From assembly GCA_965246715.1 (NCBI GenBank), contig CBDFFH010000015.1:32001-96000 (forward strand): a stretch of 64,000 nt of DNA. The letters are read 5' to 3'. The translations under genes and the position numbers were made by a program. Under the pieces are notes generated by a model. It saw only the letters and a list, made by a program, of their open reading frames with translations, did no database searches and was not told where the DNA came from. Source of the DNA: Chamaesiphon sp. GTDB lineage: Bacteria > Cyanobacteriota > Cyanobacteriia > Cyanobacteriales > Chamaesiphonaceae. This document shows positions 25,941-63,630 of the stretch, in pieces. How positions within the stretch are numbered: position 1 is the first letter of the stretch; each line of letters begins with the position of its first letter.

Positions 25941-26165
25941 GCGTTAGCTTGGGATAAGCGGAGTCTGGAGACTAAAGTCTCAGCTCATAATGCGAAGTCC
26001 GCCTACGCGGACTAGGATATTTAGTCCGCGTAGGCGGACTTTGTAACGTTAGCCCCGATTTGCGGAAAGTGCGATCTTGGGGAAACCCCAAGTAGAGCAC
26101 CTTTTCAAGACACAATCGAGGGCGGTACTGGAACGAAGCAAATATCTTTAACCCGAACTGTTGTT
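25941..26165. mobile_element. Degenerate IS982-ended MITE with REP-like doublet and one 51-nt cassette
   Basis: Ends GCGTTAGCTTGGGATAAG / TTTAACCCGAACTG. Colinear with the 62302-62645 element. Confidence 0.7.
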
Positions 26166-44841: not shown

Positions 44842-44997
44842 GCGGATGCTCCGCAAGAGAGCGTCGACGCTCTCTTGCCTACTTCCAACCTGAGTTCGAT
44901 GAGGCGTAGCCAACGACAGAAAGACTCTTGGCAAGTTTTAAGGAAGTTACGATAGTTCTGATTGCTGTTGGAGCTGAAGTATATACAGAATTAACTA

Positions 44998-45341
44998 ACG
45001 TGAGTTCGGGTTAAGGATATTTGCTTCGTTCAAGCACCGCACTCGATTGTGTCTTGTCGCGCTAAACCCTCGGCAAAGCCGAGGAGCGCGCGCCGCAAAT
45101 CGGTGCTAATAGTGCAAAGTCCGGTTGTTGCCGCGAGCGGCAAAAGCCTGCCTTCGCGGACTAATTATCTAGTCCGCGAAGCGAAAAGTGCGGTCTTGGG
45201 GTTTCCCCAAGTAGAGCACCTTTTCAAGACAGCGACGCGCGCTCCTCGGGTTCCCCGAGGGTTTAGCGCGTCAAGACAGGCGGACTTTGCATCATGAGCC
45301 GAGACTTCAGTCTCCAGGCTATTCTTATGCCGAACTGACGT
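44998..45341. mobile_element. 344-bp MITE with IS982-type TIRs
   Basis: ACGTGAGTTCGGGTTAAG ... CTTATGCCGAACTGACGT, 6-bp TSD TAACTA (44992-44997, 45342-45347). Near-identical inverted copy at 62302-62645. Confidence 0.9.
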
Positions 45342-45376
45342 TAACTATTCTTAATCCTATTCAACAAAAGATTTTA

Positions 45377-50326: not shown

Positions 50327-50580
50327 GTTCGGGATAAGGAAAATCGATTTGCTCCGTTCGAGCACCGCCCTGAACTATAAGTTCGGGCTAATAGCAAAAG
50401 TTCGTTGAAACGAACTAGACAATTTGGTAGTTCTCTTCAGAGAACTTTTGCTATCAGCCCCTGCTTGGTGCGCTAAACCCTCGGGAAACCCGAGGAGCGC
50501 GCATCCGCAAATTCATTTGAGGGCGGTGTAGCAACGAAGCTAGGAGTCATCGATCGTTAATCCTTAACCCGAAATCACCT
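50321..50580. mobile_element. IS982-ended MITE, second internal subtype, with 47-nt cassette
   Basis: ACCTGAGTTCGGGATAAG ... CCTTAACCCGAAATCACCT. Internal sequence is shared with 60216-60466. Confidence 0.75.
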
Positions 50581-60215: not shown

Positions 60216-60466
60216 ACGTCAGTTTGGGGTAAGAACAATTGATTTGCTCCGTTCCAGCACCGCCCTGAACTATAAGTTCGGGCTAATAGCTCAAGTTCTC
60301 TTCAGAGAACTGCCAAATCTATTAGTTCGTTAAAACGAACTTTTGCCATTAGCCCCTGCTTGGTGCGCTAAACCCTCGGGGAACCCGAGGAGCGCGCATC
60401 CGCAAATTCATTTGAGGGCGGTGTGCAACCGAAGCTAGGAGTCATTGAGCGGAAATACTTACCCCG
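60216..60466. mobile_element. IS982-ended MITE (subtype 2), right end truncated
   Basis: ACGTCAGTTTGGGGTAAG ... CTTACCCCG. Colinear with 50321-50580. Confidence 0.72.
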
Positions 60467-62236: not shown

Positions 62237-62301
62237 GGATTAGGGGTTAGGCTTTAGCATTTGCAGCTAGCTTGCTAACTATCTCGATCGTAATTAATTT
62301 A

Positions 62302-62645
62302 ACGTCAGTTCGGGATAAGAATAGCTTGGAGACTGAAGTCTCGGCTCATGATGCAAAGCCCGCCTGTCTTGACGCGCTAAACCCTCGGGGAACCCGAGGA
62401 GCGCGCGTCGCTGTCTTGAAAAGGTGCTCTACTTGGGGAAGCCCCAAGACCGCACTTTTCGCTTCGCGGACTAGATAATTAGTCCGCGAAGGCAGGCTTT
62501 TGCCGCTCGCGGCAACAACCGGACTTTGCACTATTAGCAACGATTTGCGGCGCGCGCTCCTCGGCTTTGCCGAGGGTTTAGTGCGACAAGACACAATCGA
62601 GTGCGGTGCTTGAACGAAGCAAATATCCTTAACCCGAACTCACGT
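62302..62645. mobile_element. 344-bp IS982-ended MITE (inverted copy of 44998-45341)
   Basis: ACGTCAGTTCGGGATAAG ... CTTAACCCGAACTCACGT. Confidence 0.9.
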
Positions 62646-62647
62646 TA

Positions 62648-63615
62648 ACGTGAGTTCGGGTTAAGCCGAAGGCGGTAACACCCACTCAAATCCAAGAGAG
62701 GGCTTCTTCGGCTGATGGCAATAGGCAATTAAACCACACAAAACATTCACACAAAAGTTGACGGGGCTACGATGACGAGAATGTTCGACTTGGGAAATAT
62801 TTTTGAGCTGGTCAATAATCGTTTCAATAATTGAACGTTTTCTGCTCAAAAATTTGTCATTTAAACGCATTAATTTGTTCTTCATATTTCGCTTCGGTTT
62901 AGCGAAAAATTCTATTCCCTCATCTTCAAATAACTGTGTTGCTAATGATTGAGACACATAGCCCTTGTCAGCAAAAATCTTACCAAACAGAGATGAAACT
63001 AAGTTTAGGACTGGCTTGCGATCGTCAATATTACCAGGGGTCAGCATGATATTTAGAAGTTCACCGTTTTCATTAGCTACTAGATGTAACTTAAAGCCAA
63101 AGAACCAATCCACAGAGGTTTTGCCGCGAGCCGCCAGATTTTTAAAAACTTTATGTCCAGATATCCGTCGATTATGGCAGACTTTTAAACAAGTGGAATC
63201 AATAAAACTAATCCCTGTGCAAGCACCAAAGCACTGCTTGAGATAAACACATAAGGGCATCAGTGTCTGAGGTATCCATTCTACAAACCGTTGATAGCTG
63301 GGCAATAGGGGAAAAGCATCTGCCCAATAAACACTTACATGGTCGATGTAATAATGCTTGAAATTTCGGTAATGGTGCTGATGAAATGTTATCAAAATCG
63401 TCATGATTTCACTCAAACAGAGGCTTTTGGCTCGGCGACGGGTTTTGCTCCCATCGGAAATGAGCTGTAAGTGCCAGCTCGGTTCAAACTTTTGGCAGAA
63501 ATTGTCGATATCACAGAATAATGCATCTAAACTATTCATAGGAGGGTGTGCTAAATCGTTGATAGTAATACCTTTTAGCTTAACGCCCCCTCCTTTTCTT
63601 AACCCGAACTGACGT
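62648..63615 (-). mobile_element. IS982-family insertion sequence
   Basis: TIRs ACGTGAGTTCGGGTTAAG / CTTAACCCGAACTGACGT, about 970 bp, single transposase. Confidence 0.92.
62661..63539 (-). CDS. IS982 transposase
   Basis: SEIMTI, PSYQRF, IDST, WFFGFKLH, N.DD, ADKGY, R..IET....LK. Confidence 0.93.
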   Translation of the reverse strand: MNSLDALFCDIDNFCQKFEPSWHLQLISDGSKTRRRAKSLCLSEIMTILITFHQHHYRNFKHYYIDHVSVYWADAFPLLPSYQRFVEWIPQTLMPLCVYLKQCFGACTGISFIDSTCLKVCHNRRISGHKVFKNLAARGKTSVDWFFGFKLHLVANENGELLNIMLTPGNIDDRKPVLNLVSSLFGKIFADKGYVSQSLATQLFEDEGIEFFAKPKRNMKNKLMRLNDKFLSRKRSIIETIIDQLKNISQVEHSRHRSPVNFCVNVLCGLIAYCHQPKKPSLGFEWVLPPSA

Positions 63616-63630
63616 TAATTTAGACCGATA

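What the first reader, a model, noticed from the sequence alone, without database searches (positions are those of the whole stretch)
62365..62593. Nested 47-nt and 51-nt hairpin cassettes that insert into palindromes without TSD
Seen: cassette A (47 nt, TGTCTTG..GCGCTAAACCCTCGG..CCGAGGAGCGCGC..CGC) occurs at 62365-62411, 62547-62593 (rev), 45050-45096 and 45232-45278 (rev), with a TGCTTGG-starting variant at 50462-50508 and 60357-60403. Cassette B (51 nt, TGTCTTGAAAAGGTGC..CTTGGGG..CCCCAAG..GCACTTTTCGC) occurs at 62412-62462, 45181-45231 (rev) and 26062-26112 (rev). A and B share ends and a bulged-hairpin fold but not internal sequence. The same site CGATTT^CAATCG holds B in the 25.9-kb MITE and A in the 62.3-kb MITE. 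The REP arm that is uninterrupted at ~26006-26013 holds A+B in tandem at 62365. Inference: an independent class of ultra-small, structure-targeted mobile elements, possibly moved by a HUH/RAYT-type enzyme. I know of no described family matching them.
Basis: partly seen in the sequence, partly recalled or inferred. Interest (0 to 1): 0.7.

Follow-up and report, generated by a model that had tools for sequence, protein, structure and literature searches.

The report
Fifty-base hairpin inserts without target duplication
About 150 copies of a 47-51-base DNA hairpin, in 17 sequence groups that share one fold, sit as clean insertions without target duplication inside repeats and genes of this cyanobacterium, and they are likely moved by a single-strand cut-and-join enzyme that has not been identified.

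Summary
Confirmed and larger than reported. All nine copies sit at the stated coordinates. The genome holds 151 intact copies (controls 4 and 2) of one fold: a TGTCTTG-type head, two covarying 7-bp stems around an internal loop, a purine triloop and a CGC tail. They fall into 17 sequence clusters. An exact empty allele exists for 85 of 105 contexts, and congeneric genomes lack the unit exactly at three further sites. C^T is the cut in 28 of 49 host-site classes; the next base is never G. Hosts are REP-like palindromes, heptamer tandem repeats, other cassettes and genes (in frame). A covariance model hits 31 of 150 genomes in 13 families of the order. A sister class with other ends shares the fold. 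'Structure-targeted' is only partly true: loops are enriched twofold, but 36 of 93 cuts lie in stems. No enzyme gene flanks the cassettes, and Y1, reverse-transcriptase and IS4 genes do not track them. HUH action in trans fits the T...C ends and C|T cut best (about 45%). The closest described kind is Elhai's 21-27-nt SDRs (paper not readable here). The scan noted similar shorter units on other DNA.

The parts
62365..62411 (+). Cassette A (47 nt): head TGTCTT, 7-bp basal stem, internal loop, 7-bp apical stem, GAA triloop, tail GC; 5' member of the A+B tandem in a REP-like loop
62412..62462 (+). Cassette B (51 nt): same fold and ends, 46% internal identity to A; abuts the CGC end of A at a regenerated C^T
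62547..62593 (-). Cassette A variant (47 nt) in the CGATTG^AAATCG hairpin loop, a G^A target
62301..62646 (+). Host MITE-like unit with AACGT(C/G)AGTTCG ends, built of REP-like arms; carries A+B and A as passengers; absent at the orthologous position in G364
44997..45342 (-). Second copy of the same host MITE (98% identical), with cassettes at 45050-45096 (+), 45181-45231 (-) and 45232-45278 (-)
26062..26112 (-). Cassette B in CGATTG^AAATCG of a related MITE; also present in G364, where the triloop is in the usual orientation, so the loop flipped in place after insertion
26003..26004 (+). Empty GTCCGCC^TACGCGG site, the unfilled counterpart of the site that holds A+B at 62365
50462..50508 (+). 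TGCTTGG-head variant of A at GCCCC^AAATTC (a C^A target), in the REP-like arm type that also flanks the Y1 gene at G000:C9:115803
60357..60403 (+). Second copy of the TGCTTGG variant, carried by a sibling MITE (83% identical)
62647..63616 (-). Adjacent 970-bp unit with the same outer ends, carrying an IS982-family transposase; context, not part of the cassettes

Best explanation
The 47-51-nt cassettes are gene-less inserts with one conserved fold that lie in many unrelated sites without target duplication, and they are likely moved as single-stranded DNA by a HUH (Y1, TnpA-REP/IS200-like) enzyme acting in trans. Shown: the fold, the fixed T...C ends, the precise insertion, the C^T > N^T/N^A target rule, and repeated independent filling of the same sites. 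Inferred: the enzyme would bind the folded single strand by shape (apical stem, triloop, internal loop), cut at C|T on both sides, join the ends into a tiny dumbbell circle whose junction (CGC|TGT) is again C|T, and reinsert it at a C|T-like site in exposed single-stranded DNA, mostly near REPs or other cassettes. This regenerates C^T at both junctions and so explains tandems such as A+B. Host MITEs and REPs then multiply the copies as passengers. Which enzyme does it is not shown.
For: TnpA-REP cleaves ssDNA at C|T (a group 3 enzyme also at CA), the attacking 3' base must be C, and stem bulge and triloop are recognition elements (PMC8266576, passages and section 17). An excision-circle-integration model with insertion near resident REPs is published (PMC3333891, passages). 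Here 146 of 151 copies start with T and 150 of 151 end in C, partly by the descriptor's design. C^T is 58 of 102 contexts against 6.1 expected, and +1 is T or A in 98 of 102 against 45.9 expected. After collapsing kin, C^T is 28 of 49 host classes and +1 is T or A in 46 of 49. Independent sets agree: C^T in 46 of 70 contexts in named genomes and 9 of 15 in metagenome contigs. Empty alleles occur at offset 0 in 85 of 105 contexts against at most 6 at any other offset. 87 of 102 sites lie within 100 nt of another repeat, against 29% of random intergenic positions. Several host repeats are the ones that flank this genome's own Y1 genes. The apical loop is a triloop, out of register for an RNA GNRA tetraloop (inference).
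Against: No cassette lies within 0.5-1.5 kb of any of 6 own and 57 foreign Y1 genes. No gene family recurs next to cassettes in 20, 103 and 33 loci. There is no GTAG or other obvious guide tetranucleotide. PF01797 is present in 36 of 38 genomes, carriers and non-carriers alike. Close homologues of the C14 Y1 protein are missing from carriers G396, G359, G326, G328, G200 and G044, and present in non-carriers G002, G095, G305 and G089. Complete genome G200 has four copies at four different sites but a single IS200-like Y1 match. The base before the cut is not C in 31 of 102 contexts. Basal-stem mismatches are A.C 17 against G.T 2 on the T...C strand, which hints that the other strand may be the folded one; that would make the C|T match a coincidence. 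Strands are interleaved along the G364 chromosome (18 + and 17 - among the 35 listed, counted by eye), so no lagging-strand bias is visible.
Confidence: 0.45

Rival explanations
1. The mobile form is a small structured RNA that is copied into DNA by a reverse transcriptase (group II maturase, retron or DGR type) or spliced into host RNA and then fixed by recombination.
For: Strong covariation of both stems fits RNA as well as DNA. The A.C excess on the T...C strand equals G.U wobble on the other strand. The genome has group II-type and retron-type RTs, and RVT_1 is present in 39 of 40 genomes. An RNA route was, as I recall, suggested for SDRs (recalled, paper not seen).
Against: No orientation bias to co-directional genes, 42 same and 44 opposite, though host spread could scramble this. 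No Rfam match at E<=0.5 in 13 loci, and only chance hits in the window. Carrier G044 has no RVT_1 match, but it is a 120-contig assembly. No cassette lies next to an RT gene. I know of no RT route that gives exact, tail-less, TSD-less inserts without an intron ribozyme (own knowledge).
Confidence: 0.22
2. An unrecognised dedicated or moonlighting ssDNA transesterase (not Y1, not RT), shared by all SDR-like classes, does the cutting and joining.
For: Several TSD-less module classes with different ends coexist in this genome (22-25 nt at HIP1-internal sites, 24 nt inside B). A sister class with the same fold has different ends. None of the four families tested tracks the cassettes.
Against: No candidate was found. 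The C|T rule is already explained by a known chemistry.
Confidence: 0.17
3. No enzyme is dedicated to them: host replication and repair (template switching, gene conversion between repeats) copies the hairpins around.
For: Many copies are passengers of amplified REPs or MITEs: 151 copies collapse to 72 lineages. In-place loop inversion is seen between orthologues. Hosts are mostly repeats.
Against: Conversion needs flanking homology, but the same subfamily sits in unrelated hosts (A in 35 contexts, B in 17). Exact ends occur at sites without any such homology. Covariation across 17 clusters implies selection on shape.
Confidence: 0.1
4. An IS110-family bridge recombinase moves them through a CT core; at C^T sites 'no TSD' is formally the same as a duplicated CT core.
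For: The genome has 11 IS110 matches, and one family inserts into the same REP hosts at a CT core.
Against: 44 of 102 targets are not C^T, yet the unit keeps both its T and its C. The circle junction does not resemble that IS110's donor ends (by eye). A 47-bp double-stranded circle is implausible (own knowledge).
Confidence: 0.06

Closest known systems
Small dispersed repeats (SDR1-8) of cyanobacteria, Elhai et al. 2008, Genome Res 18:1484 (PMC2527708, not held; seen only through citing passages)
   Same: Very small, gene-less, precisely inserted modules; SDR5 (21 nt) inserts between bases 3 and 4 of HIP1. Recalled, not seen: shared fold despite little sequence similarity, residence in heptamer repeats and minitransposons, nesting. 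SDR5-like 22-25-nt modules occur in this genome too.
   Different: Twice as long, with two stems and an internal loop; fixed T...C ends and a C^T rule, not HIP1. Found in 13 families of the order, whereas PMC5861425 (passage) says no SDR-like repeat was found outside Nostocaceae. The sister class is on a Nostoc punctiforme PCC 73102 plasmid, so the 2008 paper or its supplements may already show relatives; I could not check.
REP/REPIN/BIME elements and TnpA-REP (RAYT) (PMC8266576, PMC3333891, PMC6006769, PMC3733652; passages)
   Same: ssDNA hairpin with a bulge and a conserved triloop; C|T junctions; no TSD; intergenic and enriched between convergent genes (44 of 144 intergenic copies, against 17% of intergenic length).
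   Different: No 5' GTAG or CGTC tag; not paired as inverted doublets; not found beside a Y1 gene; inserts into REPs rather than being one; exact unit ends.
PATEs, the non-autonomous derivatives of IS200/IS605 (recalled)
   Same: Transposase-less, hairpin-bearing, TSD-less units thought to move as ssDNA.
   Different: PATEs keep two subterminal hairpins and a fixed 4-5-nt target; here there is one hairpin, no fixed tetranucleotide and no matching IS end in the genome.
Rickettsia palindromic elements (recalled)
   Same: Palindromic units tolerated as in-frame insertions in proteins; here in MutS2 and a MazF-like gene.
   Different: RPEs are about three times longer (recalled); no sequence link was tested.

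Membership tests
SDR (Elhai 2008) | Dispersed, gene-less repeat with presence/absence at orthologous sites | tested here: met
SDR (Elhai 2008) | Length 21-27 nt (range recalled; SDR5 = 21 nt) | tested here: not met
   47-51 nt in 151 of 151 (the descriptor allowed about 37-47 to 53 nt, and the unbiased indel scan also peaks at 47-51)
SDR (Elhai 2008) | Fold conserved by compensatory change across dissimilar sequences (recalled) | tested here: met
SDR (Elhai 2008) | Embedded in heptamer tandem repeats, minitransposons and own copies (recalled) | tested here: met
SDR (Elhai 2008) | Sequence match to a published SDR consensus | not testable with these tools
   paper and supplements not held
REP/REPIN | 5' GTAG or CGTC tetranucleotide at the foot of the hairpin | tested here: not met
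   head is TGTCTT or TGCTTG
REP/REPIN | Flanks a cognate RAYT/TnpA-REP gene | tested here: not met
   0 of 6 own and 0 of 57 foreign Y1 loci; the foreign loci were the best-scoring matches, not all Y1 genes of those genomes
REP/REPIN | Junctions at C|T (or C|A) without duplication | tested here: met
REP/REPIN | Bound and cleaved by a Y1 enzyme | not testable with these tools
   needs biochemistry
IS200/IS605 PATE | Fixed tetra/pentanucleotide 5' of the insertion, and ends shared with an autonomous IS | tested here: not met
   position counts; half-cassette search
MITE | Terminal inverted repeats plus TSD | tested here: not met
   asymmetric ends; empty allele at offset 0 in 85 of 105
IS110 derivative | Obligate core dinucleotide in every target | tested here: not met
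   44 of 102 targets are not C^T
Known structured RNA (Rfam 15) | Covariance-model match | tested here: not met

The most novel reading that the evidence does not exclude
These are the larger members of a bacterial world of shape-only mobile elements: 45-51-nt dumbbells whose sequence is free but whose geometry and ends are read by a transesterase not yet linked to transposition. One fold carries at least two interchangeable end codes (TGTCTTG...CGC and the sister class), spreads between families on phages and plasmids, and writes itself scarlessly into DNA, including in frame into genes. Finding that enzyme would explain the SDRs and give a minimal scar-free DNA writer.
Probability: 0.3. Interest if true: 0.82.

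Novelty: new variant of a known kind. Interest (0 to 1): 0.6.

Why it matters
How very small cyanobacterial repeats move has been open since 2008; a 2026 paper still calls the function of SDR5 unknown (PMC13756078, passage). This class makes the question directly testable. It has exact ends, a two-base target rule, a covariation-supported fold, 17 natural sequence variants, hot-spot targets and a short list of six Y1 genes in the same genome, so oligo substrates can be written down today. It also extends SDR-like elements well beyond one family, shows that they add 16-17 residues to proteins in frame, and shows that an IS4 element in turn targets their apical hairpin.

Tried and rejected
Looking for an autonomous partner: half-cassettes with long interiors in the genome gave only nested cassettes, small modules, one MITE and an IS4 element. 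ORFs between cassette pairs within 4 kb looked like housekeeping genes apart from one IS110 transposase, judged from their first residues. Neighbour clustering in 20, 103 and 33 loci gave no recurrent mobile gene. Two hits inside tnpB 3' ends are at different places and of different classes, so I read them as insertions. IS4 as mobiliser: rejected; it makes an 11-bp TSD and was not found at E<=1e-40 in carriers G364, G320, G359, G328, G194, G200, G044 and G288. The Y1 protein of C14 (subclass 1.2-like by its Y-x3-Q-x2-HH motif) does not track. PF04986 (IS91-type Y2) gave 0 of 5, but no control rang, so this is uninformative. Bulges as bridge-RNA-like guides: rejected, because one site takes at least five subfamilies and one subfamily takes 35 contexts. 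IS608-type guide pairing with the head: no fit, by eye. Phage collection: no match. Viral contigs: 6 hits, 3 real in HIP1-bearing phage contigs and 3 copies of one unpaired look-alike. Sequencing runs: no RNA holder listed. Contigs of 4 runs show 51-52-nt skips at 26061/26113, but these come from paralogous repeats and add nothing on the locus. Literature: 9 searches found no description of a 45-51-nt class; the key 2008 paper, its supplements and older tRNA-Leu intron papers could not be read, so absence from print is not shown. PMC4476775 (passages) and PMC6513891 (passages) added nothing. The three exact cross-genome empty sites are not spanned by an ORF over 200 aa, so I do not call them coding. 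Dropped rows: 5 of 156 descriptor hits, and weak single hits that I did not verify.

Full report
1. Observation. The window is G000:C15:32001-96000 of a 6.1-Mb, HIP1-rich genome with 2789 GCGATCGC sites. They fold as bulged hairpins; 6 of 7 folded strands have z between -3.5 and -3.8. They are not nine events. The MITEs at 45.0 and 62.3 kb are 98% identical, and those at 50.3 and 60.2 kb are 83% identical, which leaves about five insertions in the window.

2. Anatomy. A descriptor (head, 7-bp stem, 5' bulge, 7-bp stem, 3-nt loop, 3' bulge, CGC tail) finds 156 hits in the genome, against 4 and 2 in Markov controls. I removed 5 look-alikes, leaving 151 copies of 47-51 nt in 98 distinct sequences and 17 clusters at 80% internal identity. 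Because the descriptor demands pairing, I retested with a pairing-blind pattern. Among 55 distinct own sequences, variable columns pair in 274 of 330 cells (basal stem; shuffles mean 133, maximum 162) and 256 of 275 cells (apical stem; mean 135, maximum 164). The 63 distinct sequences from other genomes behave alike. On a 25-sequence alignment, 11 of 13 pairs show changes on both sides, and the covariation score is 0.654 against 0.198 shuffled and at most 0.178 for slid structures; relatedness inflates such figures. The triloop is purine-rich on the T...C strand in 137 of 151 copies. Inverted loops are decay in place: G364 has the usual loop at the orthologue of 26062.

3. They are insertions, without TSD. 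Joining the flanks gives a sequence found elsewhere in the genome for 85 of 105 contexts at offset 0, and for at most 6 at any offset from -4 to +4. An unbiased indel scan also recovers the 47-51-nt class, in 46 contexts. Between genomes, three sites with no own empty allele lack exactly 48, 48 and 51 nt in G364 and G396, in G396, and in G415 (four queries were aligned, the fourth being the window MITE). In the variable linker of mutS2, 25 congeneric loci were compared. Cassettes of different subfamily or orientation sit in frame in G000, G290, G404 and G411, and G364 has the empty host site. A 48-nt copy lies in frame in a MazF-like gene in a metagenome contig.

4. Targets. After collapsing passengers there are 72 lineages in 49 host-site classes. 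C^T accounts for 58 of 102 contexts (6.1 expected) and for 28 of 49 classes. The base after the cut is T or A in 98 of 102 and never G. Named genomes give C^T in 46 of 70 contexts, and metagenome contigs 9 of 15. Hosts are REP-like palindromes, including those that flank the genome's Y1 genes; heptamer tandem repeats such as TAGCCAC, AAAATCC and TATTCCC; and other cassettes, nested or in tandem. 87 of 102 sites lie within 100 nt of another repeat, against 29% of intergenic controls. Hot spots are refilled independently: CGATTG^AAATCG is empty 163 times and holds at least five subfamilies. Structure matters only moderately: hairpin loops in 34 of 93 against 101 of 558 controls, stems in 36 of 93. 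There is no orientation bias to flanking genes, 42 to 44.

5. Range. A sequence pattern hits 20 of 301 genomes of the phylum. The 3 hits outside the order do not form the hairpin by eye, nor do 2 single hits inside it. The covariance model hits 31 of 150 genomes in 13 of 32 families of the order; single weak hits were not verified. A scan of the species collection for the shorter B-like forms gave 103 stretches; the 80 listed are all cyanobacteria, mostly Nostocaceae, with one Moorena and one Chroococcales record. Copies occur on cyanobacterial plasmids and in 3 phage-like contigs, which offers a route for spread. A sister class with the same fold and often the same inner sequence, but ends reading ..CG(G/C)CAG and CTG(G/C)CTC, is found in 7 of 40 genomes (up to 80 copies; 6 of the 7 also carry the TGTCTTG class). 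It is also on plasmids of Nostoc punctiforme PCC 73102, Trichormus variabilis ATCC 29413 and Gloeothece verrucosa. Its exact ends are not mapped.

6. Mechanism. T...C ends, a C|T circle junction, a C^T target, no TSD, and a bulged hairpin with a constrained triloop match what is published for TnpA-REP: cleavage of ssDNA at C|T or CA, an obligatory 3' C for strand transfer, and a model of excision, circle and integration near resident REPs (PMC8266576, passages and section 17; PMC3333891, passages). I therefore favour HUH action in trans, at about 45%. The evidence against is real. No cassette lies beside 63 Y1 genes. Y1 genes are in 36 of 38 genomes whether or not they carry cassettes. The C14-type Y1 does not track. 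G200 has four copies but one IS200-like Y1. The base before the cut is not C in 31 of 102 contexts. An A.C over G.T excess of 17 to 2 in the basal stem leaves the active strand open. RT genes are equally uninformative (39 of 40). An IS4 element that splits cassettes at their apical hairpin is a parasite of them: it makes an 11-bp TSD and is missing from several carriers. IS110 fails on non-CT targets.

7. Known kinds. It works like the SDRs of Elhai et al. 2008. I could not read that paper. Citing passages give SDR5 as a 21-nt module inserted precisely in HIP1, of unknown function, and not seen outside Nostocaceae. The 21-27-nt range, the nesting and the heptamer hosts are recalled. The cassettes fail the length criterion and have a different target rule, so I file them as a new variant of that kind, not as a member. 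They are not REPs (no GTAG, no cognate gene), PATEs, MITEs or Rfam families. Nine literature searches found no description of a 45-51-nt class, but relatives exist in the genome that the 2008 study surveyed, so its text or supplements may mention them. Earlier notes of this scan report 18-, 20- and 35-nt units of similar behaviour in other phyla; I did not test them.

8. Verdict. A real, well-defined and widespread class of ultra-small TSD-less inserts with a mapped fold, ends and target rule. The enzyme is unidentified, and HUH chemistry is the leading hypothesis. Interest 0.6.

Noticed in passing
G000:C49:86932-88412 (L201); also C40:38978, C9:142612, C9:58708, C37:16326, C47:165715, C44:43069, C55:146815: A 1481-bp IS4-family element (DDE_Tnp_1, 457 aa) inserts into CGGG-N3-CCCG palindromes; 6 of 11 paired copies have an exact 11-bp TSD. 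Most intact copies sit in the apical hairpin of cassettes or SDR-like modules. An IS that preys on these tiny elements.
   Followed up: partly
G000:C2:91190, C22:21221, C44:125566 and HIP1-internal sites listed: Other TSD-less hairpin modules of 20-25 nt: a 24-nt unit nested in B and in itself, and a 22-25-nt unit at CG^ATCG like SDR5.
   Followed up: partly
window 62301-62646 and 62647-63616; 122 units genome-wide: A family with AACGT(C/G)AGTTCG ends and 4-5-bp TSDs (63 with 4 bp, 22 with 5 bp, of 122). The same ends enclose unrelated cargo: REP-like arrays, an IS982 transposase, and ORFs that look like IS1 and ISAs1 proteins (those two labels recalled). Its transposase was not identified.
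   Followed up: partly
G000:C43:14000-31000 (L282): About 17 kb with 31-41% GC and almost no HIP1 inside a cyanobacterial contig. It holds a Ty3/gypsy-like polyprotein (protease, RT, RNase H, integrase) between 523-bp LTRs that are 99.2% identical. Most likely eukaryotic DNA joined into the assembly.
   Followed up: partly
G000:C22:94339, C47:100512: An IS110 family inserts at the CT of the CTAC end of GTAG-type REPs, the same repeats that host cassettes.
   Followed up: no
L224-L248 (mutS2 linker in 25 congeneric loci): The linker varies from 83 to 248 nt, always in the same frame, and is rebuilt from different tandem repeats, REPs and cassettes in each genome.
   Followed up: partly
G000:C14:4559 (L199) and C9:115803 (L200): Two short Y1 proteins with the Y-x3-Q-x2-HH signature of subclass 1.2 are flanked by abundant hairpin repeats, although PMC6006769 (passage) describes that subclass as generally lacking typical terminal structures.
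   Followed up: no
L297: A phage-like contig carries a head-to-tail pair of near-identical B-type cassettes.
   Followed up: no
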